44,375 nucleotides of DNA from Enterobacteria phage mEp237. Shown here one piece after another: positions 4,239-40,368 of the stretch (the stretch's first letter is position 1; each line of letters starts with the position of its first letter). The notes under the pieces are model-generated. The model did no database searches. It saw nothing but the letters and a program-made list of their open reading frames with translations, and was not told the DNA's origin. The DNA lies in the sequence record NC_019704.1, one strand, 5' to 3'. The position numbers were made by a program, and so were the translations under genes.

Positions 4239-5562
4239 TCTTCCGCATATTGCCAGTATGGCCTTTAATGAGCCGCTGATGCTTGAACCCGCCTATGCGC
4301 GGGTTTTCTTTTGCGCGCTGGCTGGCCAGTTGGGCATCACCCGGCTGACAGATACCGTCTCTGGCATCACGCTTGATGCCGGACAAATAGCCGAACCGCT
4401 GGCGCTGTTTGGTGAGGATGATGACATGGATCCCCGTCCATCACGCAGCTATCAGGTGGCAAATGGTATCGCGGTCTTGCCGGTTTCCGGCACGCTGGTC
4501 AGTAAAACCCGTGCGCTTCAGCCTTATTCCGGCATGACGGGTTACAACGGGATCATTGCTCGCCTGCAGCAGGCAATCAGTGACCCCGGCGTTGACGGCA
4601 TTCTTCTGGATATGGATACGCCGGGTGGAATGGTGTCCGGGGCGTTTGACTGCGCCGACATTATAGCCCGTATGCGCGATATCAAACCCATCTGGGCGCT
4701 GGCCAATGACATGAACTGCAGTGCAGGGCAGCTTATAGCCAGTTCGGCATCGCGACGGCTGGTCACACAAACGGCCAGAACCGGCTCCATTGGGGTCATG
4801 ATGGCGCACAGCAACTATGGCGCTGCGCTCAAAACTAACGGCGTTGAGGTCACGCTGATTTACAGCGGCGATCGCAAGGTCGACGGCAACCCTTACGAAA
4901 AGCTTCCGAAAGATGTGCGTGCTGATTTCCAGACGCGTATCGATGCCACTCGTCAGATGTTTGCCGAAAAGGTTTCCGCTTATACCGGCATGTCTGTTCA
5001 GGACGTGCTGGACACCGAAGCGGCAGTATTCTCCGGCCAGGAGTCTTTGGATAACGGACTGGCGGATGAACTTGTTAACAATACCGATGCGCTCGGCGTG
5101 ATGCGCGAAGCACTCGACAGACGCAAAAAAACAACCCTTGGAGGAACTATGCCATCACCTTCTGCTTCAGCTGTGACCACTAAGCCAGTTGACCAGGCAG
5201 CAACTCAGACAACTGCCTCAGCTGAACAGGTCACTACCGTTGACACGACCATTGCTTCCGTAGCGGCCCCTGTAGATGTCAGTGCGCAGGTTACTGCAGC
5301 AGTAGCTGCAGAGAATAGCCGCATCATGGGCATCCTGAACTGCGATGAGGCTAAAGGGCGTGAGTCACAGGCGCGAGCACTGGCCGAAACGCCGGGTATG
5401 ACGGTAGAGAGCGCACAGCGCATTCTGGCTGCTGCACCGCAAAGTGCCCAGGCGCGTACCGATACGGCGCTGGATCGTTTGATGGAAACAGCACCCGGTG
5501 CACTCCCAGCAGGTAGCGCATCTTCTGATGCCGCTGACGATTTGTTAAACACCCCCGTTTAA
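4219..5562 (+). CDS. C: Head maturation protease / scaffold (lambda gpC-Nu3 homolog, S49 family)
   Basis: 447 aa; lambda C-like N-terminus ([27 protein letters not shown]) and conserved C-terminal scaffold segment (AAENSRIMGILNC...). Confidence 0.9.
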   Translation: MAHELRNLPHIASMAFNEPLMLEPAYARVFFCALAGQLGITRLTDTVSGITLDAGQIAEPLALFGEDDDMDPRPSRSYQVANGIAVLPVSGTLVSKTRALQPYSGMTGYNGIIARLQQAISDPGVDGILLDMDTPGGMVSGAFDCADIIARMRDIKPIWALANDMNCSAGQLIASSASRRLVTQTARTGSIGVMMAHSNYGAALKTNGVEVTLIYSGDRKVDGNPYEKLPKDVRADFQTRIDATRQMFAEKVSAYTGMSVQDVLDTEAAVFSGQESLDNGLADELVNNTDALGVMREALDRRKKTTLGGTMPSPSASAVTTKPVDQAATQTTASAEQVTTVDTTIASVAAPVDVSAQVTAAVAAENSRIMGILNCDEAKGRESQARALAETPGMTVESAQRILAAAPQSAQARTDTALDRLMETAPGALPAGSASSDAADDLLNTPV

Positions 5563-6997: not shown

Positions 6998-7042
6998 CTT
7001 CCCCCAGTGGCCCTGTCGGGCCACCTTTCTGGAGTATTTCCC

Positions 7043-21606: not shown

Positions 21607-21873
21607 TTATAGGCCAACCTGGCGAACAGTCGGGAACTCTGAAACCAACCACATATCGGACTCTTCAAACATTTCCTCCAGCATGCGGTTCAGTTTTTCC
21701 CGATCGCTTTTGCTGGCATCGCTGTTTAAGCCGTTCGCCTGCATCGGCTTAACCTTCACTTCTGCATCCGGAAAGATCCGGTGCACTCGCTTTGTTAACT
21801 CATTCAGAATTATTTCTCTGGCACCTGTTAATCCTTCAACATTCCGTTTGTCGTACACCAACTCAACGAACAT
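21607..21873 (-). CDS. dinI: DinI-family protein (MsgA-like)
   Basis: Start MFVELVYDKRN with GGAGG upstream; resembles the remembered DinI-family MsgA sequence (KRVHRIFPDA); LexA box upstream. Confidence 0.8.
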   Translation of the reverse strand: MFVELVYDKRNVEGLTGAREIILNELTKRVHRIFPDAEVKVKPMQANGLNSDASKSDREKLNRMLEEMFEESDMWLVSEFPTVRQVGL

Positions 21874-21911
21874 ACCGCCTCCAAAGCAACAATGATTTTG
21901 CACGCAATTTA

Positions 21912-21930
21912 TACTGTTTATTTATACAGT
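21912..21930. promoter_or_regulatory. LexA (SOS) box upstream of the DinI-like gene
   Basis: TACTGTTTATTTATACAGT: perfect CTGT-N8-ACAG core (21914-21929), about 40 nt upstream of the start codon. Confidence 0.75.
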
Positions 21931-22125
21931 GTCAACGGTTGGGCACGTAGCTTTTTAAGGAAGGTTTTTGGGGCATGTATGGGGCATAAATGCCAGTTTT
22001 GGGGCATGGTTGGGACATTTTAACTCATATGAACTTAACCGAATTTCATATGGAGGCGTCTTATAATGCACTGATTAACCTAAAGAAAACACATGCTCTT
22101 GGGCGTTCTTTAGTGATTTTAAAAA

Positions 22126-22230
22126 TTACCGCGTCACGCAGTTAAAGTGACGGGCATACTCTTCAAGGCTGGTGATCCCCAACCGCACCCATTTAGGATG
22201 CGACCATTGCGGCAGACCGATGTAAATCAT
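22126..22230 (-). pseudogene. 5' fragment of a yecE-like (DUF72) host gene: 34 codons then stop
   Basis: Minus-strand translation [34 protein letters not shown] resembles a DUF72/YecE N-terminus (from memory) and ends prematurely. Confidence 0.55.
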
Positions 22231-22463
22231 AACGCGTGAAGGATCTCTTCCACGCTACGCACACGGGCGATGCGCGGGTAGATATGATTAATGCTGTTAT
22301 TGTGTTGCTCGGCGCTGGCGGCACTACAGGCGTCTTCGGCAATCACCAGATTAAAGCCAAGTTCCCAGGCATTGCGGGCGGTGGATTCAACACCGATATT
22401 GGTCGAGATCCCACATAACACAATTGTATCGATACCTCGGCGGCGTAACCGCACCTCGACCAT
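22227..22463 (-). pseudogene. 3' fragment of an isochorismatase-family hydrolase gene (yecD-like)
   Basis: 78-aa ORF with isochorismatase C-terminal signature ([28 protein letters not shown]...VIAEDACSA); no N-terminal half; reading frame broken just upstream. Confidence 0.65.
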
Positions 22464-22654: not shown

Positions 22655-23203
22655 ATGATTTACGGTTATGCCCGAGTATCAACAAACCACCAGGACACTG
22701 AATTGCAACTAACGGCGCTCAAGTCAGCTGGTTGTGAGAAAATTTTTGAAGAGCATGCCAGCGGGAGGAAATCGAATCGGCCGGTTCTAAAACGGCTGAT
22801 CGCCACTATGCAGCCGGGGGATGAACTGGTGGTCTGGAAGCTGGACAGGATAGGCCGCAACGTTCTGCATGCGCTGTTGATGTTCCAGCAGTTACAGGAA
22901 AAGGGTATCAACTTCCGCAGTATTACCGATGGCGTGGATCTCAAAACAGCCAGCGGCCGCTATAACTTTCGTAACATCCTTTCCGCAGCACAATATGAAT
23001 CTGATCTTAATAGCGAACGTACCTTAGCAGGGCTGGCCGTAGCCAGGGCAAAAGGGCGAGTTGGTGGTCGCAGGCCTAAGTTCACGGATGAGCAATGGCG
23101 GGAAATGGGGGAGCGGATGGCAACCGGTGAATCACGACAAAGCGTATCAAAAACGTATGGAGTAGGGCTCTCAACTCTGTATAAAAAGTTTCCAGCTAGC
23201 TGA
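22655..23203 (+). CDS. Serine recombinase, DNA invertase (Hin/Gin/Pin family)
   Basis: 182 aa; N-terminal YARVSTNHQ catalytic Ser motif, VVWKLDRIGRN, C-terminal HTH (GLSTLYKK); GGAG RBS. Confidence 0.92.
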   Translation: MIYGYARVSTNHQDTELQLTALKSAGCEKIFEEHASGRKSNRPVLKRLIATMQPGDELVVWKLDRIGRNVLHALLMFQQLQEKGINFRSITDGVDLKTASGRYNFRNILSAAQYESDLNSERTLAGLAVARAKGRVGGRRPKFTDEQWREMGERMATGESRQSVSKTYGVGLSTLYKKFPAS

Positions 23204-23478
23204 TAACGGGAAAGAAACAGAGAAGGGCACAAATATTGTGTACTTTAATGTGCCCTTTAATTTATTGATTGGTGGTTGAATTGTCCGTAACTTTTTGATT
23301 TAAGTGCAAATTTCTAATAAATTAGAACACTTTCTTAAATTGTCATTTGGCATATTACGAACAATTCCGCGTAAAAACGTTCTGTTACGCTAAACCCTTA
23401 TCCAGTAGGCTTTCAAGGATGTAAACCATAACACTCTGCGAACTAGTGTTACATTGCGTGTAGCTTTGAGTGGGCAAC

Positions 23479-23519
23479 TTTGTGTACACTTTTGTGTACC
23501 CAAAAACAAAAATGTGTAC
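23479..23519. repeat. Three direct repeats of TTTGTGTAC / ATGTGTAC just upstream of int (candidate integrase arm sites)
   Basis: TGTGTAC at 23481-23487, 23494-23500 and 23513-23519; a fourth copy at 23237-23243. Confidence 0.5.
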
Positions 23520-23526
23520 CCATTCA

Positions 23527-24720
23527 ATGATCACCGACACAAAGCTCAGGAAGGCGCTCGGCAAGAAAAGAGATGATATCGAGATTATTTCTGATTCGCA
23601 CGGGCTCAACGCCAGAATCAGCCAGGCCGGAAAAATATCATTTTTCTATCGGTATCGCTGGGCCGGTAAAGCGGTAAAACTCAATGTTGGTGATTATCCT
23701 GCAATGAGTATCACCCAGGCAAGAGAGCGTCGCCAACAATTCAGAAACTGGTTAACTGAGGGACTGGATCCGCGAGAGCAGGTGAAGCTGGATAAGCAGA
23801 CCCGACAGGAAGCGATGTCCGTTGCCGAAGCGTTCAATTACTGGATTGAAAGGCACTGTATCGCTAACGGGCTAGTTAAAGTCGATTACTATCGCCAGGT
23901 GTTTGAGAAACATATCGCCGAACCGATGAAGAATGTCAAAGTCGATAACACAGCGAAAATGCACTGGATCAACGTCTTCGATTCTATAGAAAGCAGGGTG
24001 ATGGCTCATTACATGCTTTCGCTGTGCAAACGGGCGTTTAGGTTCTGCGTTAACAGAAGTGTGATCGCCTCAAACCCACTCGAGGGATTACTGCCATCTG
24101 ATGTCGGGCAAAAGCCTAAAAAGAGAACTCGCAGGATGGACGATGACGATCTGCGCAAAATCTATCAGTGGTTGAAAAGCCATATGTCGATAGAGTCCGT
24201 TTTCCTGGTGAAATTTATTATGCTTACCGGATGCCGTACGGCTGAGATTCGACTTAGTGAGAGATCATGGTTTCGATTGGATGATAATGAGTGGGTCGTG
24301 CCTGCGGGCAGTTATAAAACTCGGGTACATATTAGAAGGGGACTCTCAGACGCCGCCGTTAACCTGGTCAGAAATCACCTCAAGAAAATAAACACCAATC
24401 ACCTGGTGACTTCACAACGTAAAATTGATGGCGGGATCAAAGATTCGCCCGTTCATTCACCTGTGGCATCCAATTACGCCCGTTCTATTTGGAATGGAAC
24501 AGGTATGGCAGAGTGGTCGCTTCATGATATGAGGCGGACGATAGCCACAAATCTCTCTGAGTTAGGTTGCCCGCCGCACGTAATTGAAAAGCTGCTCGGG
24601 CATCAGATGGTGGGGGTTATGGCGCATTACAACCTTCATGACTATATCGATGATCAGAAACACTGGCTCCGCGTTTGGCAGAGCCATCTTGAAGAGATCA
24701 TCGGAGAGCCCTTCAGTTAA
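23527..24720 (+). CDS. int: Tyrosine integrase (P4-like phage integrase family)
   Basis: Start MITDTKLRK typical of P4-like integrases; C-terminal catalytic region (HDMRRT..., LLGHQ...HYNLHDY); track start 23470 and ATG 23512 are alternatives. Confidence 0.92.
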
Positions 24721-32153: not shown

Positions 32154-32546
32154 TTACTCAGAATCACCCTTAATCCGCCGCCCCATATACTTGGCGTACA
32201 GTTCATCGAGTTCCTTCAGGCGCAGTGATACCGCCTTAAGAACTCCACTCTGATCCTCTTCGGGGAGTTGACGGAAAAAACGTAAAAGCTCTTGCTCATT
32301 ACTTTTTAATCCATCATTGGGCCCTATATCCTGCCCCAAAACCCAGGCTAAATTCACACCAAGCGCATCAGCTAGCTTAAGTGCGGAGTTTTTTCCAATA
32401 GTTCCCCTTACAAACCAGTTGTTAACCGACTGGGATGTTACGCCACAAATTCTGGCCAGATCTGCTTTTGAGAGATGTTTACTATTCGTGATCTCATTGA
32501 GTCGTCTGACCTGTGGGTTATCTGATTCGTGTGTATTTTTTCTCAT
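32154..32546 (-). CDS. DicA/RacR-like HTH repressor paralog (no peptidase domain)
   Basis: N-terminal XRE HTH (LSKADLARICGVTSQSVNNWF) and C-terminal LPEEDQ...LRLKELDELYAKYM segment shared with the adjacent paralog; start taken at internal ATG. Confidence 0.75.
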   Translation of the reverse strand: MRKNTHESDNPQVRRLNEITNSKHLSKADLARICGVTSQSVNNWFVRGTIGKNSALKLADALGVNLAWVLGQDIGPNDGLKSNEQELLRFFRQLPEEDQSGVLKAVSLRLKELDELYAKYMGRRIKGDSE

Positions 32547-32565
32547 GTACAAGAGTATCACTTAG

Positions 32566-32949
32566 CTAATCAGCATCGCCCCTGATTCTGCGATTCATGT
32601 ACTTGGCATATAGTTCATCGAGTTCCTTCAGACGCAGGGAGAAGATCCTTATCATATTCTGCTGTTCTTCTTCCGGTAACTGTCTGTAGAGCTCCAGAAT
32701 ACGTTGTTCATCAGGCTTAAGGCCATCCTTCTCTCCAACATCCTCACCAAGTAGCCAGGGGACGGATACCCCAGCAGCATCAGCAACCGCTAATGCAGAA
32801 CTTTTGCTGATTCTTCCTGTTTTGAACCAACTGGAAACAGCTTGCTTACTGACGCCAGCAACCCTGGCCATCTCTGTTTTAGAGAAACCTTTCCGGTTCA
32901 GTTCTGTAAGCCTGGAGATCAGCCCAGTAGTCATTGTGTTTTCGCTCAT
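32566..32949 (-). CDS. DicA/RacR-like phage repressor (CI analog without S24 peptidase domain)
   Basis: HTH (FSKTEMARVAGVSKQAVSSWF) plus C-terminal LPEEEQ...LRLKELDELYAKYM domain; divergent from the cro-like gene; start could be 32934, 32949 or 33033. Confidence 0.8.
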   Translation of the reverse strand: MSENTMTTGLISRLTELNRKGFSKTEMARVAGVSKQAVSSWFKTGRISKSSALAVADAAGVSVPWLLGEDVGEKDGLKPDEQRILELYRQLPEEEQQNMIRIFSLRLKELDELYAKYMNRRIRGDAD

Positions 32950-32958
32950 TTCACTAGT

Positions 32959-33024
32959 GTAAATGATTGCTTTACCAGTAGGTAGGCATTCATTGATTGA
33001 CTCATTGGTAAAATGATGCTTTAC
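32959..33024. promoter_or_regulatory. Divergent immunity promoter/operator region with two dyad-symmetric operator-like sites
   Basis: GTAAATGATTGCTTTAC (32959-32975) and GTAAAATGATGCTTTAC (33008-33024), each GTAAA-N-TTTAC, 49 bp apart; candidate -35 TTGACT at 32997-33002. Confidence 0.55.
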
Positions 33025-33046
33025 TTTTTCCATCTAAGGAGGTCCT

Positions 33047-36047: not shown

Positions 36048-36452
36048 GTGGATTACGGGAAGCAGCGGAGAAGGCGACGAAAGGCGGGTGGGCTGCACGT
36101 AGGGGAGGTGAAAACCACTCTTGCGGTCGATGAATACGACGAACATCGCGCGCAGCTGGCGTTGGAGTTCCTGCGTAAGTACTGCGGTGAGGATTGCGAC
36201 GGGCTGGTAGATATTGACAGAATCACTTTTCGCATCGTTGATATCGGTATGCGGATGCTGCAACCGCACGAGCTATACCGCGTGCAGGGCTTCCCGGAGT
36301 GGTACATCATCGATCAGGACTATCGGGGGCAGAAGTACGCGAAGGACAAGCAGGTTGCGCGTTGTGGCAACGCAGTTCCGCCGCCATTCGCCGAGGCACT
36401 GGTGAGAGCTAATTTACCGGAGCTTTGTCAGCAGAAAGAGATCGCAGCTTAA
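36048..36452 (+). pseudogene. Truncated DNA cytosine-5 methyltransferase (C-terminal fragment only)
   Basis: Only C-terminal motifs present (RMLQPHELYRVQGFPEWY, ARCGNAVPPPFAEAL); no motif I/IV region upstream; a diverged second copy of the last about 20 codons lies at 36975-37040. Confidence 0.65.
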
Positions 36453-36551
36453 TGTCCGAGTTTCAGAACATGGTGTAACAAATCCTGCTACTTCAATGAC
36501 GTAGATTCAAACCTGATATAATTAGGCTCTTCACAACACGAGGAGCCTAAA

Positions 36552-36788
36552 ATGCACCATTACATGATCCCTATCAACGGAACTGTTCACCTGATCAAGA
36601 CTGACTCTCTAATCCCTGAAGGGACTGAGTATAGCTTTGAAGGAGAAAGTCTAATCTGCGCTCATGCCACTTTTAAATCTGGGACGTATGGCTTCCTGAT
36701 ACCAAAGGGAAATCAGTTGAATAGAGAGCATGCGTTCTGGCATGTAAGTGGAATTCACCCTAATCCCCTGGGAATGGATAAATCGTAA
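36552..36788 (+). CDS. Hypothetical protein in a cassette inserted into the methyltransferase remnant
   Basis: 78-aa ORF with GAGGAG RBS; followed by a 14-bp-stem hairpin. Confidence 0.5.
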   Translation: MHHYMIPINGTVHLIKTDSLIPEGTEYSFEGESLICAHATFKSGTYGFLIPKGNQLNREHAFWHVSGIHPNPLGMDKS

Positions 36789-37057
36789 TCCATAATATGC
36801 ATGCCATCGTCCTGAACATACGGTGGCATGCATCCGGCACTACAACAGAAACGTTAAAGTGCAAACAATACAATTCGAGCAATATTCAACCTGTCACAGA
36901 TGGCGAATACCACCGCCATTTCGTGCATTCTGTGGTTTCTATTACCCATTGCGTTAATGCTGTCCAATCATCAGCTCGCTGAGGCGCTGGTTAGGGCTAA
37001 CCTACAGGAGCTTTGTCAGCAGAAACAAATAGCGGCGTAATAAAACATCGCTAATTC

Positions 37058-37085
37058 AACCCGCTACGGCGGGTTTTCTTTTTTT
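37058..37085 (+). terminator. Intrinsic terminator after the methyltransferase remnant
   Basis: Stem AACCCGC / GCGGGTT with loop TACG, followed by an 11-nt T-rich run. Confidence 0.7.
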
Positions 37086-37147
37086 ACTACTGACAGAAAA
37101 TTAACAATTTGTGCTCTTAAAACGTTGATCATTTCCGCGCATAGGTA

Positions 37148-37167
37148 TACTGTATAAAAACACAGTA
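37148..37167. promoter_or_regulatory. LexA (SOS) box upstream of the second DinI-like gene
   Basis: TACTGTATAAAAACACAGTA: perfect CTGT-N8-ACAG (37150-37165), about 20 nt upstream of the start codon. Confidence 0.78.
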
Positions 37168-37185
37168 CATGCAATGGGGGCCATT

Positions 37186-37419
37186 ATGAAAGTTGAATTA
37201 ACCATTGATCGCATGAAAGAACTTCCTAAAGGCGCAGTACCAGCACTGGAGAAAGAACTGCTTAAGCGCCTGAATGATCACTATGACAATTGCAGGCTCA
37301 CAATCCGCCGTGCCGGGGCCGATGGGTTAAGTGTTTTTGGTGGTGACAAGGACGATAAAAAGAAAATTGAATCAATCCTCCAGGATACCTGGGAAAGCGC
37401 TGACGACTGGTTTTATTAG
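37186..37419 (+). CDS. dinI: DinI-family protein
   Basis: 77 aa from MKVELTIDR; matches remembered E. coli DinI pattern including C-terminal ESILQDTWESADDWF; G-rich RBS. Confidence 0.88.
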   Translation: MKVELTIDRMKELPKGAVPALEKELLKRLNDHYDNCRLTIRRAGADGLSVFGGDKDDKKKIESILQDTWESADDWFY

Positions 37420-37536
37420 AATTGCGCTTAAGGCTGGCGCGCATTTTTCAGAATACCGCAATTTGCGTAACCCTCTGATGCTGCTGCCGACAATCTTTAA
37501 TCGCGTCTGTTAGTCGCTCGAAGGGAGAACATAAAT

Positions 37537-37785
37537 GTGAGTGATTCAGCTTTGCAAACGTCAGAAGACAACTGGTATGACATTGTAAGAAGGTCTGACG
37601 GCTGCGTGGTGTTTAGCTTTCCTTCATCGGGCAGGCATCTAATTTATCGCGTCAATGGCATGGTTTCTATGCGGCCTTTGCTGGATGATGAAGAGGTCTT
37701 TACTCCTAATGGTTTTATGCAATTTATCCGCCGTCTCGGCTACCGGGTAACACCACCTTCTGATAATATGAAATCAACGGTCTGA
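37537..37785 (+). CDS. Hypothetical protein (GTG start), downstream of the LexA-controlled dinI
   Basis: 82-aa ORF with AAGGGAG RBS 9 nt upstream of GTG. Confidence 0.5.
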   Translation: MSDSALQTSEDNWYDIVRRSDGCVVFSFPSSGRHLIYRVNGMVSMRPLLDDEEVFTPNGFMQFIRRLGYRVTPPSDNMKSTV

Positions 37786-37819
37786 ACAACCGTAACCTAC
37801 TGCGCCACGGAGAGAAACC

Positions 37820-38419
37820 ATGGCGCACGAACTACAACTCATTAAGCAGTCCTCAGGAATTCTGATCCCCGCTACGCCGGAGACCAGCGATATTCTGCAA
37901 TCAAAAATCAAACTTGGTGCCGTATTGGTAGCCGAATTTCGTCAGGTGAGGAATCCAGCATTCCATCGCCGTTTCTTTGCGCTCCTGAATCTCGGGTTTG
38001 AATACTGGGAACCCACCGGTGGGGCGATTTCTTCCAATGAACGTAAATTGGTGACCGGGTACGCTAAATTCCTCGCGGCATTTGGTGGAAACGAAGGCGC
38101 ACTGCTGGATGCTGCCGAGCAGTATCTGGACCGTATCGCCGATAAGCGCGCCGGTAGTATCAGCATCTGCAAATCCTATGACGCATATCGTGCATGGGTG
38201 ATCATCGAGTCTGGCCACTACGACGCCATACAGCTTCCCGACGGCACCCTTCGCAAACACCCCCGCAGCATTGCCTTTGCCAACATGGACGAAACCGAGT
38301 TCCAGCAGCTGTACAAAGCCGCGCTCGATGTTCTGTGGCGCTGGGTATTGTCCCGGGCATTCAAGGACCAGCGTGAAGCGGAAAACGCCGCATCGCAGCT
38401 CATGAGCTTTGCGGGGTGA
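37820..38419 (+). CDS. Hypothetical nin-region protein
   Basis: 199-aa ORF with GGAGAGA RBS; family not determined. Confidence 0.6.
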   Translation: MAHELQLIKQSSGILIPATPETSDILQSKIKLGAVLVAEFRQVRNPAFHRRFFALLNLGFEYWEPTGGAISSNERKLVTGYAKFLAAFGGNEGALLDAAEQYLDRIADKRAGSISICKSYDAYRAWVIIESGHYDAIQLPDGTLRKHPRSIAFANMDETEFQQLYKAALDVLWRWVLSRAFKDQREAENAASQLMSFAG

Positions 38420-38625
38420 TGGCGATGAAATATTCCTGGTTCCACCATCACGAATGCACAACCGATCAGGCCGACGAGCTGGTGGAGAAATACCGGGCGC
38501 GCGGTGTAAAAACAGAGCGCAGCCTGAATCGCGACAACATCACCTGGACCGTCAGCGCGCAATTGCCGGAAGGCGACAACGCGCCTCGCCCGAGCCGGGT
38601 ATGGCAAAGCAAGGCGTGGGGGTGA
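38419..38625 (+). CDS. Hypothetical nin-region protein
   Basis: 68-aa ORF whose ATG overlaps the preceding stop (TGATG). Confidence 0.45.
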   Translation: MAMKYSWFHHHECTTDQADELVEKYRARGVKTERSLNRDNITWTVSAQLPEGDNAPRPSRVWQSKAWG

Positions 38626-38627
38626 GC

Positions 38628-38918
38628 ATGGCAAATTTACGCAAAGAGGCTCGTGGTCGTGATTGTCAGGTTCGAATTCCCGGCGTCTGCAACGGTAACC
38701 CGGAAACGTCTGTACTGGCGCACATTCGCCTGGCCGGGTTATGTGGCACCGGAATCAAACCGCCTGATCTGATTGCCACCATTGCATGCTCTGCCTGTCA
38801 CGACGAGATCGACCGCCGTACACATTTTGTCGATGCTGAGTATGCTAAAGAATGCGCGCTGGAAGGTATGGCGAGAACGCAGGTTATCTGGCTGAAAGAG
38901 GGGGTAATCAAGGCGTGA
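38628..38918 (+). CDS. ybcO: YbcO-like protein (DUF1364, putative Cys-rich nuclease)
   Basis: 96 aa from [21 protein letters not shown]...; near-identical to remembered DLP12 prophage YbcO; conserved Cys/His. Confidence 0.8.
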
Positions 38919-39277
38919 ATACTTACAACATCACATTGCCCTGGCCGCCGAGCAATAACCGCTACTACCGCCATAATCGCGGGCGCACGCACATCAGCGC
39001 AGAAGGGCAGGCATACCGCGATAACGTCGCCCGAATCATTAAAAACGCAATGCTGGATATCGGTCTGGCTATGCCTGTGAAAATCCGCATTGAGTGCCAC
39101 ATGCCGGATCGCCGTCGCCGTGACCTGGATAATCTGCAAAAGGCCGCTTTTGACGCACTCACCAAAGCAGGTTTCTGGCTGGACGATGCTCAGGTCGTTG
39201 ATTATCGCGTTGTGAAGATGACCGTTACCAAAGGTGGAAAGCTGGAACTGACAATCACCGGGCTGGAGGCCGTATGA
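38915..39277 (+). CDS. rusA: Holliday junction resolvase RusA
   Basis: 120 aa from GTG ([26 protein letters not shown]...); near-identical to remembered E. coli RusA; overlaps the ybcO stop. Confidence 0.88.
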
Positions 39278-39410
39278 CATTTGAATCCTGTTTTTCCGAT
39301 CACCTCCGCGTTCGCTGGCAGCGGCTTCGCTTATACCACTTTCCCGGCTCTGTGCTAACGGACTACCGGATACTGAAGAATTACGTGAAAACTTATGCTG
39401 GAGAAGCGCT

Positions 39411-40241
39411 ATGAACCTTGAAAACACAGTGAAATACCACTTCGCTAAATCCACACTGATTAGCGATTCTCCGCGCGCTACCGCCTCCGATTCACTGACC
39501 GGTACCGACATAATGGCTGCCATGGGCATGACGCAGGAACGCGCCGCAATGGGTTACAGCGCCTTCCTCGGCAAGATGGGCATAAGCAATAACGACCGGG
39601 ATCGGGCTATCGGACTGCTGGCTGAGTACGCGATGACCAAATGTGACAAGGTTGCCGCGCTGCGTAAGTTGGATTTCGGGGTTAAGCCTCAGGTGATGTA
39701 CCAGTTGGCCACCTTCGCATTTGAGGATTATTCCCGCAGCGCAGCCAGTGTAAAACGGTGCGATTGCTGCAACGGTGAGGGCTTTATTGATGCTGAGGTA
39801 TTCAGTATGAAAACCAATACGCCGGCACATGCAAAAGAAATCATTAAGGCATCAAAAGCGTTTGGTTTGAAGGTGATACCTTCGCAGCACCAAAACAGGC
39901 GTGAGGTAAAAGAGATAACGCGCGTTCTCTGTCCTCAGTGCAAAGGGAAAAAAGCCATCAGTTGCGCATGTAGTGATTGCCGTGGCCGTGGGAAAGCGGT
40001 GAATCAGAAGGAAACGAAGCAGCAAGGCGTTCCAGTATTCAGCACCTGCAAGCGCTGTGGCGGTCGCGGATATGAGCGCATCCCGTCAACTGAGGCCCAC
40101 GCAGCTGTTTGCCAGATTACGGATGTAATCAGCCTGGATACGTGGAAGAAGTCCGTTAAACCGTTCTATGATCAGCTGATTACGAAATTCGATATTGAAG
40201 AGGCATGGGCAGAAAAACAGCTTAAGCAGATAACGCGGTAA
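39411..40241 (+). CDS. Putative late-gene antiterminator (Q-like, Cys-rich zinc-finger type)
   Basis: 276 aa at the Q position between rusA and the lysis cassette; CxxC repeats (CDCCNGEG, CPQCKGKK, CACSDCRGRG, CKRCGGRG); family assigned by position and Cys pattern. Confidence 0.65.
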   Translation: MNLENTVKYHFAKSTLISDSPRATASDSLTGTDIMAAMGMTQERAAMGYSAFLGKMGISNNDRDRAIGLLAEYAMTKCDKVAALRKLDFGVKPQVMYQLATFAFEDYSRSAASVKRCDCCNGEGFIDAEVFSMKTNTPAHAKEIIKASKAFGLKVIPSQHQNRREVKEITRVLCPQCKGKKAISCACSDCRGRGKAVNQKETKQQGVPVFSTCKRCGGRGYERIPSTEAHAAVCQITDVISLDTWKKSVKPFYDQLITKFDIEEAWAEKQLKQITR

Positions 40242-40337
40242 CGCCTGTAGCGATAGCCTGCGATTTTGTTGCGGGCTATTTACTTTTCCCGAATCTGTGT
40301 TAATTTTGTCCCAACGATGGGTTAATGCCTTCGTTTC

Positions 40338-40368
40338 AAGCCCTGCGGATAACACCGTGGGGCTTTTG
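40338..40368 (+). terminator. Candidate late terminator (tR'-like) downstream of Q
   Basis: Interrupted stem AAGCCC-TG-CGG / CCG-TG-GGGCTT with loop ATAACA, followed by TTTT, about 100 bp after the Q stop. Confidence 0.5.

What the first reader, a model, noticed from the sequence alone, without database searches (positions are those of the whole stretch)
37148..37785. LexA box driving a DinI-like gene, followed by an 82-aa ORF: possible SOS-controlled antirepressor module
A perfect CTGT-N8-ACAG LexA box lies about 20 nt upstream of a DinI-family gene and just after a strong terminator, so it defines its own SOS-regulated unit. Because the repressors lack autocleavage domains, an SOS-induced antirepressor is the expected induction route, and LexA-controlled DinI-plus-antirepressor operons are known in some Salmonella prophages. 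The 82-aa ORF at 37537-37785 is the positional candidate, but a possible hairpin with a T5 run at 37420-37448 may separate it from dinI.
Basis: partly seen in the sequence, partly recalled or inferred. Interest (0 to 1): 0.6.

Follow-up and report, generated by a model that had tools for sequence, protein, structure and literature searches.

The report
Gifsy-type SOS antirepressor operon, E. coli phage
This is the already-described Salmonella Gifsy-type prophage induction switch: a LexA-repressed promoter drives dinI, a small antirepressor (close orthologue of GfoA) and irsA.

Summary
From left to right the unit contains:
- a strong terminator (37058-37085);
- a 20-nt LexA box, TACTGTATAAAAACACAGTA (37148-37167), overlapping a -10-like hexamer;
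- a DinI gene (37186-37419);
- a 117-nt leader with a weak hairpin;
- a GTG-start 82-aa ORF (37537-37785);
- a DUF1367/irsA gene (37820-38419).

This is the terminator, LexA box, dinI, antirepressor, irsA operon that Lemire et al. 2011 showed induces Gifsy-1/-2/-3. Their published gfoA primers match the two ends of the ORF (20/21, 36/37 and 20/20 nt). The irsA and gfhR primers match the neighbouring gene and the phage's repressor start.

The ORF is under purifying selection (dN/dS 0.07-0.13). In 26 of 28 loci from different enterobacterial species, a perfect CTGT-N8-ACAG box precedes the antirepressor homologue. In 21 of these it lies 18-22 nt before dinI. In five that lack dinI it lies directly upstream of the antirepressor.

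Both repressors in the window are short DicA/GfhR-like HTH proteins with no S24 cleavage domain. Phages carrying this antirepressor type share a conserved repressor C-terminal domain.

The hairpin is identical in Gifsy-1/-2, where co-transcription has been shown, so it does not split the operon.

Verdict: new member of a known kind, low interest. Side notes are tandem repressor paralogues, a second LexA-boxed dinI gene, and the family's absence from annotation libraries.

The parts
37058..37085 (+). Strong intrinsic terminator (AACCCGC-TACG-GCGGGTT plus TTCTTTTTTT). It insulates the SOS unit from upstream early-right transcription.
   Evidence: Terminator scan; fold energy -12.8 kcal/mol. Conserved in SEN34, Gifsy-1 and Gifsy-2. 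Lemire et al. note a terminator before the LexA box in all Gifsy phages.
37125..37151 (+). Putative PdinI promoter: -35-like TTGATC (37125-37130), 15-nt spacer, -10-like TATACT (37146-37151).
   Evidence: Coordinates. TTGAxx and T[AG]TACT are conserved in the Salmonella, E. coli, Citrobacter and Klebsiella loci. The consensus scan did not report it because it requires a 16-18 nt spacer. A -10 SNP in the Gifsy-1 homologue abolishes induction (PMC5322425). The assignment here is inferred.
37148..37167 (.). LexA box TACTGTATAAAAACACAGTA, overlapping the -10 hexamer and the expected transcription start.
   Evidence: 0.00 expected by chance at up to 3 mismatches. A perfect CTGT-N8-ACAG box is conserved in 26 of 28 species loci and in all phage loci. 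The homologous Gifsy-1 and Gifsy-2 dinI genes are induced 23-fold and 14-fold by nalidixic acid (PMC8072944).
37186..37419 (+). dinI homologue (77 aa), first gene of the operon.
   Evidence: Pfam PF06183, E 3.8e-26; PHROG 189. dN/dS 0.17-0.24 against homologues.
37420..37536 (+). 117-nt dinI-antirepressor leader. It contains a weak hairpin (37423-37441), a U-run (37444-37448) and the AGGGAG Shine-Dalgarno sequence (37522-37527).
   Evidence: Its first ~95 nt are nearly invariant between the window, SEN34, Gifsy-1 and Gifsy-2, although the flanking genes differ. There is no significant RNA fold (z-score 0.86; alifold -5 kcal/mol), no Rfam hit and no promoter-like site.
37537..37785 (+). GTG-start 82-aa gene: orthologue of the Gifsy-1/-3 antirepressors GfoA/GfhA.
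   Evidence: Primer matches 20/21, 36/37 and 20/20. 91-93% identical to Salmonella homologues. dN/dS 0.07 and 0.13. The non-ATG start is conserved. No Pfam or NCBIfam family; PHROG 340 is labelled 'unknown function'.
37820..38419 (+). irsA homologue (DUF1367, 199 aa), third gene of the operon.
   Evidence: Pfam PF07105, E 2.5e-91. The Gifsy-1 irsA primer matches 36/39 at 37814-37851. Present downstream in 25 of 28 species loci.
32566..33033 (-). Repressor 1 (155 aa, with an alternative start at M29, 32949). GfhR-like and non-cleavable; the presumed target of the antirepressor.
   Evidence: gfhR primers match both starts: 19/21 at 33013-33033 and 14/15 at 32935-32949. HTH only, no S24 domain. 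Related to DicA, E 3e-9. Its C-terminal domain is conserved in all prophages examined that carry the GfoA-type antirepressor.
32154..32561 (-). Repressor 2 (135 aa, or 130 aa from M6). A co-oriented paralogue 4 nt downstream of repressor 1, with a different HTH and a similar C-terminal domain.
   Evidence: 55% identical to repressor 1 over 118 aa. HTH only. Its N-terminal HTH region closely resembles that of the sole repressor of another E. coli prophage, L045 (73% identity overall). SEN34 carries the same tandem pair.
32959..33024 (.). Two GTAAA-N7-TTTAC imperfect palindromes (32959-32975 and 33008-33024), lying between the short-form repressor start and the cro-like gene. Putative operators.
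   Evidence: the repeat finder. Inference only.

Best explanation
The region is the SOS-sensing induction module of a temperate E. coli phage related to phi80 and HK225, and it is of the Gifsy type.

Proposed mechanism, with shown and inferred steps marked:
- In a lysogen, host LexA binds the box at 37148-37167. The box overlaps the -10 element of PdinI, so LexA binding silences the promoter (inferred).
- The strong terminator just upstream keeps other transcription out (inferred).
- DNA damage activates RecA, LexA cleaves itself, and PdinI fires (inferred).
- One transcript carries dinI, then, past a weak and leaky hairpin, the GTG-initiated 82-aa antirepressor, then irsA (inferred here; shown for the Gifsy homologues).
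- The antirepressor does not cleave anything. It binds the phage's short, non-cleavable GfhR/DicA-family repressor and pulls it off its operators, which starts lytic transcription. Binding is probably through the repressor's conserved C-terminal domain (binding and displacement inferred by orthology; the C-terminal docking site inferred from conservation).

Shown here: the anatomy, orthology to GfoA, purifying selection, conservation of the LexA-box link, and co-occurrence with this repressor type. Inferred from the Salmonella experiments on orthologues: LexA binding, co-transcription, and repressor binding and displacement.
For: Anatomy:
- All features are at the stated coordinates.

Identity with the Gifsy operon:
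- Lemire et al. 2011 (PMC3121763) describe a terminator, LexA box, dinI, a GUG-start antirepressor and irsA.
- They show that lexA3 abolishes induction.
- They show that expression of gftA or gfoA alone induces the prophage.
- They show that GfoA binds GfoR in a stable complex.
- Their gfoA primers match the ORF ends (20/21, 36/37, 20/20). The irsA primer matches 36/39, and the gfhR primers match both repressor starts.
- The nearest phage, SEN34, has the same layout, with a 92.7% identical protein.

The ORF is a real gene:
- dN/dS is 0.07 and 0.13.
- Homologues 51-95% identical occur across Enterobacteriaceae.

The LexA link is conserved:
- 21 of 28 species loci have dinI with a perfect box 18-22 nt upstream.
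- 5 loci without dinI have the box directly upstream of the antirepressor.
- The box persists across two different promoter designs.
- Gifsy dinI genes are 14-fold to 23-fold SOS-induced in vivo (PMC8072944).

Co-transcription:
- The hairpin is identical in Gifsy-1 and Gifsy-2.
- PBAD-dinI induces Gifsy-2, and a PdinI -10 SNP kills Gifsy-1 induction.
- The leader contains no promoter-like site.

Repressor pairing:
- Neither repressor has an S24 domain.
- Nine of the 13 phage records with a GfoA-type gene also carry this repressor type.
- LT2 Gifsy-1, which carries gftA instead, has GftR (its 3' end was checked by eye against primer le60).
- The repressor C-terminal domain is conserved while the HTH varies.
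Against: - There is no experimental datum for this phage or for any E. coli copy.
- I did not have the full GfoA, GfhA or GfhR sequences. Orthology to the named proteins rests on primer-covered ends plus about 91% identical Salmonella database proteins.
- The C-terminus differs from GfoA by a 1-nt indel...PPSDNMKSTV here against ...PPSDI. The 82-aa form is, however, the majority form in the family.
- The -35/-10 pair has a short 15-nt spacer, and the consensus scan did not call it.
- The same antirepressor allele sits next to different immunity regions in different E. coli prophages, so matching specificity in this mosaic is assumed rather than shown.
- The AlphaFold model is only moderate (pLDDT 69) and gives no independent functional clue.
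Confidence: 0.85

Rival explanations
1. The module is intact and SOS-inducible, but in this mosaic phage the antirepressor does not match the resident repressor. It would act only in trans on other prophages, or be a passenger, and this phage would be induced by another route.
For: The same antirepressor allele (at least 99% identity) is linked to several different immunity regions in E. coli. Lemire et al. show antirepressors acting on non-cognate repressors, and one (FsoA) that plays no role in its own phage's induction.
Against: Repressor 1 matches gfhR primers at both starts. GfoA and GfhA are reported to inactivate GfhR. All the variant immunity regions keep the same conserved repressor C-terminal domain. 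Neither repressor has a cleavage domain.
Confidence: 0.08
2. The hairpin with the T5 run at 37423-37449 is a working terminator. Only dinI would then be SOS-controlled, and the 82-aa ORF would be expressed from elsewhere, for example by antiterminated early-right transcription.
For: The terminator-like site is called by the scan. The leader is unusually conserved.
Against: The stem is weak: 6 bp with two G-U pairs, about -7 kcal/mol against -12.8 for the real terminator upstream. The identical sequence in Gifsy-1 and Gifsy-2 is read through. Relatives without dinI put the LexA box directly before the antirepressor. The leader has no promoter-like site. The hairpin is not conserved as a structure in Enterobacter or Klebsiella relatives.
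Confidence: 0.05
3. The 82-aa protein has some other SOS-linked role, such as modulating RecA together with DinI or inhibiting cell division, rather than acting as an antirepressor.
For: It has no domain annotation in Pfam, NCBIfam or PHROGs and no structural match. The functions of DinI and IrsA in this operon are themselves unknown.
Against: It is a near-orthologue of GfoA, whose expression alone induces Gifsy-1 and Gifsy-3 and which co-purifies with GfoR. It also co-occurs with one repressor family.
Confidence: 0.02

Closest known systems
Gifsy-1 dinI-gfoA-irsA and Gifsy-3 dinI-gfhA-irsA operons of Salmonella Typhimurium ATCC14028 (Lemire, Figueroa-Bossi and Bossi 2011, PMC3121763)
   Same: - Same order: terminator, LexA box, dinI, GUG-start small antirepressor, irsA.
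- Near-identical antirepressor ends and irsA start.
- GfhR-like non-cleavable repressor with two in-frame starts.
- Identical dinI-antirepressor leader, as seen in the LT2 Gifsy copies.
   Different: - The host and phage backbone differ: this is an E. coli phi80/HK225-like mosaic.
- The protein is 82 aa rather than 77 aa, owing to a 1-nt indel at the 3' end.
- dinI is only about 70% identical in DNA to the Gifsy-2 copy.
- This phage has a second repressor paralogue in tandem.
Gifsy-2 (and LT2 Gifsy-1) dinI-gftA operon with the GftR/GtgR repressor
   Same: Same operon architecture, LexA box position and leader sequence. Experimental proof exists that the LexA-controlled promoter drives the antirepressor.
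   Different: GftA (73 aa) shows no BLASTP similarity to the window ORF. Profile-profile comparison gives only a weak, full-length, colinear match (P 2.5e-4, probability 43%). The repressor GftR is a different branch, sharing only 27 identities over 97 aligned residues.
Rem-DicA of the E. coli K-12 Qin cryptic prophage (Ragunathan and Vanderpool 2023, PMC10448788)
   Same: A small antirepressor relieves a short non-cleavable DicA-type repressor. Rem was found by iterated searches starting from GfoA. The window's repressor 1 is homologous to DicA (E 3e-9). A similar terminator sequence precedes rem.
   Different: Rem does not match the GfoA-family profile significantly (P 0.019). Qin has no LexA box or dinI upstream of rem, and the inducing signal for Rem is unknown.
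Tum of coliphage 186, and AntC of N15 (LexA-controlled antirepressors cited in PMC3121763)
   Same: LexA-repressed antirepressor genes lying outside the immunity region. Tum carries a DinI-like half, so the DinI-antirepressor association recurs.
   Different: In Tum the antirepressor and DinI parts are fused in the reverse order, in a P2-like phage with a different repressor. Sequence similarity to the window ORF was not tested here.
Lambda CI / LexA-type self-cleaving repressors
   Same: The same input (RecA activation by DNA damage) and the same output (derepression of early promoters).
   Different: There is no S24 domain and no cleavage. The signal passes through LexA and a stoichiometric binder, so in principle the switch is reversible.

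Membership tests
Gifsy-type LexA-controlled dinI-antirepressor-irsA operon | LexA box adjacent to a dinI homologue, preceded by a Rho-independent terminator | tested here: met
   Terminator at 37058-37085, box at 37148-37167, dinI ATG at 37186. Aligned with Gifsy-1, Gifsy-2 and SEN34.
Gifsy-type LexA-controlled dinI-antirepressor-irsA operon | Small ORF with a non-canonical GUG start between dinI and irsA | tested here: met
   GTG at 37537, 82 aa, followed by DUF1367/irsA at 37820. GTG or TTG starts are conserved in 20 loci.
Gifsy-type LexA-controlled dinI-antirepressor-irsA operon | Antirepressor sequence orthologous to GfoA/GfhA | tested here: met
   Published gfoA primers match 20/21, 36/37 and 20/20 nt at the ORF ends. 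The ORF is 91-93% identical to Salmonella homologues.
Gifsy-type LexA-controlled dinI-antirepressor-irsA operon | Cognate repressor is short, lacks a self-cleavage domain, and belongs to the GfoR/GfhR/DicA group | tested here: met
   No Peptidase_S24. gfhR primers match 19/21 and 14/15 at the two starts. Similarity to DicA, E 3e-9. The NCBIfam DicA subfamily hit is below its cut-off.
Gifsy-type LexA-controlled dinI-antirepressor-irsA operon | LexA binds the box and transcription is SOS-inducible and lexA-dependent | not testable with these tools
   Only indirect support: box conservation in 26 of 28 loci, and in vivo induction of the Gifsy homologues (PMC8072944; PMC3121763).
Gifsy-type LexA-controlled dinI-antirepressor-irsA operon | Antirepressor binds the repressor and releases it from DNA, and its expression alone induces the prophage | not testable with these tools
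   Shown for GfoA/GfoR and GftA/GtgR. Here there is only co-occurrence with a conserved repressor C-terminal domain.
DinI family (PF06183) | Profile match above the Pfam gathering score | tested here: met
   91.6 bits against a 24.2 cut-off. It scores below the NCBIfam equivalog cut-off for chromosomal DinI (91.4 against 111), so it is a phage paralogue and not the host gene.
GftA/FsoA branch of Gifsy/Fels antirepressors | Detectable sequence homology to GftA | tested here: inconclusive
   BLASTP finds none. hhalign gives P 1.3e-3, improving to 2.5e-4 with a broader profile, full-length and colinear, at 19-43% probability.
Rem (Qin) antirepressor | Sequence homology to Rem | tested here: not met
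   hhalign P 0.019 over only 25 columns.
Lambda CI / LexA-like cleavable repressors | C-terminal Peptidase_S24 domain | tested here: not met
   Pfam finds only HTH_3/Phage_CI_repr in both repressors.

The most novel reading that the evidence does not exclude
One SOS-made antirepressor may control two co-transcribed repressors with different DNA-binding heads but a shared C-terminal docking domain. Repressor 1 would hold this phage's own operators. Repressor 2 has an HTH region close to that of the sole repressor of another E. coli prophage, and its inferred operator type is absent from this genome. It would then be a lysogen-expressed heteroimmunity factor against a rival phage. A single LexA-gated signal would lift both self-immunity and cross-immunity. 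In addition, no terminator lies between PdinI and Q, so the same SOS transcript might reach the late-gene activator directly.
Probability: 0.25. Interest if true: 0.45.

Novelty: new member of a known kind. Interest (0 to 1): 0.22.

Why it matters
Scientifically it adds little. It shows that the Gifsy-type route of LexA, antirepressor and non-cleavable repressor operates in the same form in E. coli phi80/HK225-like phages. Lemire et al. had already anticipated this from database homologues.

The practical value is for annotation:
- The exact 82-aa protein occurs in more than a thousand assembly blocks.
- The module is in about 1% of complete E. coli genomes.
- It is nevertheless labelled 'hypothetical' everywhere, and the family has no functional label in any library searched: absent from Pfam and NCBIfam, and 'unknown function' in PHROGs.

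Recognising the module predicts that these prophages are induced by quinolones and mitomycin through LexA rather than by repressor cleavage. It also predicts possible cross-induction of co-resident prophages that share the repressor C-terminal domain.

Tried and rejected
- **Direct BLASTP against the LT2 'Gifsy-1' small ORF.** It gave no similarity. The cause is that LT2 Gifsy-1 carries gftA and GftR rather than gfoA. The problem was resolved by using the published primers.
- **Leader as a structured RNA or sRNA.** The single-sequence fold is no better than shuffles (z-score 0.86). Alifold on 20 loci gives about -5 kcal/mol with no consistent hairpin. Rfam finds nothing at the gathering threshold or in a relaxed search.
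- **Fold-based function.** The AlphaFold2 model (pLDDT 69, four strands plus a helix) has no PDB match (best E 1.6), no PDB sequence match, and only a sequence homologue in BFVD.
- **Exhaustive profile search.** A search of 1.8 billion representatives returned only 40 small relatives. None of the 16 more distant hits inspected resembled GftA.
- **gfoR primers.** They do not match the window, so repressor 2 should not be called GfoR.
- **L045-type operator.** The by-eye operator AACAT-N-ATGTT has no match in the window. With 0.45 expected by chance, its absence is only weakly informative.
Full report
**What is in the sequence**

Reading 36800-38200 and listing ORFs shows the following features on the + strand:
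- A G+C-rich hairpin with a T-run at 37058-37085. The terminator scan reports it, and it folds at -12.8 kcal/mol.
- The 20-mer TACTGTATAAAAACACAGTA at 37148-37167.
- A GGGGG Shine-Dalgarno sequence, followed by ATG at 37186.
- A 77-aa ORF ending at 37419.
- A 117-nt spacer.
- An AGGGAG Shine-Dalgarno sequence, followed by GTG at 37537.
- An 82-aa ORF ending at 37785.
- A 199-aa ORF at 37820-38419, starting 34 nt further on.

Pfam calls the first ORF DinI (E 3.8e-26) and the third DUF1367 (E 2.5e-91). It finds nothing for the 82-aa ORF.

The core CTGT-N8-ACAG pattern occurs twice in the window, against 0.41 expected. The 20-nt LexA consensus at up to 3 mismatches also occurs twice, against 0.00 expected.

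**What it is**

A megablast against phage records found the whole unit at 86% identity in Salmonella phage SEN34. It also found parts of it in Gifsy-1 and Gifsy-2. The annotations there give the same order: dinI, a small hypothetical gene, then a DUF1367 or 'NinB-like' gene.

Lemire, Figueroa-Bossi and Bossi 2011 (PMC3121763) describe exactly this locus:
- In all Gifsy prophages a terminator-like palindrome precedes a LexA box next to a dinI homologue.
- The non-cleavable lexA3 allele abolishes induction.
- The interval between dinI and irsA encodes a small protein starting at GUG.
- Expression of that protein alone induces the prophage.
- The protein accumulates after mitomycin C and forms a stable complex with the non-cleaved repressor.

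The LT2 copies carry the gftA allele, and BLASTP finds no similarity between GftA and the window ORF. The paper's primer tables, however, give both ends of gfoA, the Gifsy-1 allele of strain ATCC14028. I aligned those primers to the window:

| Primer | Matches | Window position |
|---|---|---|
| gfoA 5' end | 20/21 | 37538-37558 |
| gfoA 3' end (le163) | 36/37 | 37729-37765 |
| gfoA 3' end (pp867) | 20/20 | 37746-37765 |
| Gifsy-1 irsA start | 36/39 | 37814-37851 |
| gfhR, first start | 19/21 | 33013-33033 (minus) |
| gfhR, second start | 14/15 | 32935-32949 (minus) |

The two gfhR matches coincide with the two in-frame starts of the phage's repressor. The ORF is therefore the GfoA/GfhA orthologue.

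It differs at the very end. The window reads ...PPSDNMKSTV where GfoA reads ...PPSDI, consistent with a 1-nt indel. The 82-aa form is the majority form among homologues.

**Is it a real, constrained gene?**

The ORF has 38 cluster representatives at 54-95% identity in Salmonella, Citrobacter, Enterobacter, Klebsiella, Lelliottia, Raoultella and E. coli. All are named 'hypothetical'.

Nei-Gojobori estimates indicate purifying selection:
- dN/dS is 0.07 against SEN34 (16 synonymous and 5 non-synonymous differences).
- dN/dS is 0.13 against a Klebsiella phage.

An exhaustive profile search of 1.8 billion representatives finds only 40 relatives, all small proteins sharing the core motif GR-L-Y--NG--S-RPL--DE-V...GY-V.

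No Pfam, NCBIfam or functionally labelled PHROG family covers it. PHROG 340 and 1813 are 'unknown function', and GftA falls in PHROG 4847, also unknown.

An AlphaFold2 model is moderate (pLDDT 69): four strands followed by a helix. It has no PDB or BFVD fold match apart from a sequence homologue.

Profile-profile comparison with the GftA family gives a full-length, colinear but weak match (P 1.3e-3, improving to 2.5e-4). This is compatible with the distant relationship shown in the paper's Figure 4A, but it does not prove it. Rem of Qin does not match significantly.

**Is the LexA link conserved?**

A scan of one genome per species returned 28 loci encoding relatives, plus one spurious hit. 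The breakdown is as follows:
- In 21 loci a dinI gene lies directly upstream, and a perfect CTGT-N8-ACAG box lies 18-22 nt before its start.
- Five loci from Silvania and Leclercia have no dinI. They have a perfect box about 170-190 nt upstream of the antirepressor itself.
- One locus has a decayed dinI with a one-mismatch box.
- One locus is a 3.6-kb contig with no box.

The CTGT and ACAG arms are invariant, while the spacer and the surrounding promoter vary. One promoter design is TTGAxx-15 nt-T[AG]TACT, overlapping the box. The other, in Enterobacter, is TTGCAA...TATAAA, abutting the box.

The conserved unit is therefore 'LexA box plus antirepressor', and dinI is a frequent but dispensable passenger. 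This agrees with Lemire's finding that non-polar dinI and irsA deletions do not affect induction.

In S. Typhimurium the homologous Gifsy-1 and Gifsy-2 dinI genes are induced 23-fold and 14-fold by nalidixic acid (PMC8072944).

**The hairpin**

The site at 37423-37441 followed by CATTTTTC is reported by the scan. It is weak: six pairs, two of them G-U, at about -7 to -8.6 kcal/mol.

It is base-for-base identical in SEN34, Gifsy-1 and Gifsy-2. In those phages:
- PBAD fused at dinI makes Gifsy-2 arabinose-inducible.
- A single -10 SNP in PdinI abolishes Gifsy-1 production, with gfoA stated to be co-transcribed (PMC5322425).

No promoter-like site lies in the leader. The hairpin therefore does not isolate the ORF. 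At most it attenuates transcription, which is an inference.

The first ~95 nt of the leader are more conserved between the window and Gifsy-2 than either flanking gene:

| Segment | DNA identity to Gifsy-2 |
|---|---|
| dinI | 70% |
| Whole leader | 83% |
| Antirepressor gene | 56% |

The leader shows no convincing RNA structure or covariation and no Rfam match. SPN3UB lacks it altogether. I leave it as a conserved linker of unknown role. It may be a recombination joint for swapping antirepressor alleles.

**The target**

The immunity region has two co-oriented HTH genes on the minus strand:
- Repressor 1 at 32566-33033, 155 aa.
- Repressor 2 at 32154-32561, 135 aa.

They face a YdaS-type cro-like gene and a YdaT-type gene. 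Neither repressor has a Peptidase_S24 domain. Repressor 1 is homologous to DicA (E 3e-9).

In the phage database, nine of the 13 records that encode a GfoA-type protein also encode this repressor type. LT2 Gifsy-1 carries gftA and has GftR instead (its 3' end was checked by eye against primer le60).

I compared repressors from five prophages that carry the GfoA-type gene. The C-terminal ~58 residues (...DGLKPDEQRLLELYRQLPEEEQQNM-RI-SLRLKELDELYAKYM-RRI...) are highly conserved, at 45-48 of 56-58 residues, whereas the HTH half varies.

This fits the published finding that GfoA and GfhA each inactivate both GfoR and GfhR, although those two repressors bind different operators. It also suggests, as an inference, that the C-terminal domain is the docking surface.

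**Context**

The window is a complete temperate phage genome in cos-linear order:
- terminase through to tail genes;
- integrase at 23470-24720;
- recET;
- the immunity region;
- replication genes O and P;
- the nin region;
- Q at 39411-40241;
- lysis genes.

It is mosaic with HK225 and phi80.

The dinI-antirepressor-irsA block occurs at 95% identity or more in 51 of 5426 complete E. coli genomes (52 have a match at any identity), always annotated as 'hypothetical protein | DinI family protein | DUF1367 family protein'. The exact protein is present in 1383 assembly blocks.

**Comparison with known systems, and verdict**

This is a member of the Gifsy-type LexA-controlled antirepressor operon. 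Every sequence-testable defining feature is met. The biochemical features (LexA binding, repressor binding) cannot be tested here.

It works like Tum of phage 186 and like Rem-DicA of Qin, but it is not a detectable sequence relative of Rem. It differs from lambda CI-type switches in using no repressor cleavage.

Lemire et al. already reported homologues of the dinI-irsA region and of GfoA in Escherichia. The finding is therefore a correct identification of a known kind in a new host and backbone. Interest is low.

Three points remain mildly interesting:
- the tandem repressor pair;
- a second LexA-boxed DinI-family gene at the other end of the genome;
- the absence of any terminator-like site between PdinI and the end of Q.

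Noticed in passing
window 21607-21931 (minus strand gene; box at 21912-21931): A second LexA box, TACTGTTTATTTATACAGTG, lies about 38 nt upstream of a second DinI-family (MsgA-like) gene. The gene probably starts at ATG 21873, reads MFVELVYDK..., and matches Pfam DinI at E 5.8e-23. It sits just past the tail-fibre genes. The phage therefore carries two separate SOS-boxed dinI paralogues.
   Followed up: partly
window 32154-33033 (minus strand): There are two tandem repressor paralogues 4 nt apart. They are 55% identical overall, 48% in the HTH half and 62% in the C-terminal half. The same tandem pair is in SEN34 (SEN34_43 and _42), but this immunity region occurs in only 2-3 of 5426 complete E. 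coli genomes. Repressor 2's HTH region resembles that of the sole repressor of another E. coli prophage (L045). L045's by-eye operator (AACAT-N-ATGTT) is absent from this window, which hints at a heteroimmunity role.
   Followed up: partly
window 37420-37515: The dinI-antirepressor leader is nearly invariant across the window, SEN34, Gifsy-1 and Gifsy-2, even though it is flanked by diverged dinI genes and by non-homologous-looking antirepressor alleles (gfoA type against gftA type). No RNA structure, promoter or Rfam family explains this. It may be a module-exchange joint.
   Followed up: partly
window 37441-40241: No terminator-like site lies between the weak post-dinI hairpin and the stop of the Q antiterminator gene (39411-40241). 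The next terminator-like sites are at 40252-40280 and 40338-40365. The genes in between (irsA, a 69-aa ORF, ybcO, rusA, a ylcG-like ORF, Q) are tightly packed on the same strand. An SOS-derepressed PdinI transcript could therefore in principle reach Q.
   Followed up: no
window 36048-37040: A truncated C-5 cytosine DNA methyltransferase fragment lies at 36048-36452 and matches only positions 270-320 of the Pfam model. A second copy of its last ~20 codons (...AEALVRANLQELCQQKQIAA) lies at 36980-37040, immediately before the terminator. Together they look like remnants of a disrupted or duplicated dcm-like gene. RefSeq E. coli copies annotate it as a partial pseudogene.
   Followed up: no
loci L034-L037 and L040 (Silvania, Leclercia), about 170-190 nt upstream of position 7001: Relatives of the antirepressor that lack dinI altogether have the LexA box directly upstream, followed by a conserved ~170-nt leader unrelated to the one in the window. 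The LexA-antirepressor link is therefore the conserved core, and dinI is optional.
   Followed up: partly
L044 (E. coli K-12 Qin) 4904-5060, minus strand: The sequence upstream of rem keeps a terminator (AACCCGCTTCGGCGGGTTTTT) almost identical to the one preceding PdinI here, but it has no LexA box or dinI. This looks like a decayed version of the same module.
   Followed up: no
window 22655-23203 and 22227-22463: A Pin/Hin-type serine recombinase (Resolvase plus HTH_7) and what looks by eye like an isochorismatase-like gene fragment (not checked against Pfam) lie between the tail region and the integrase. They look like cargo or decay at the attachment-site end of the genome.
   Followed up: no
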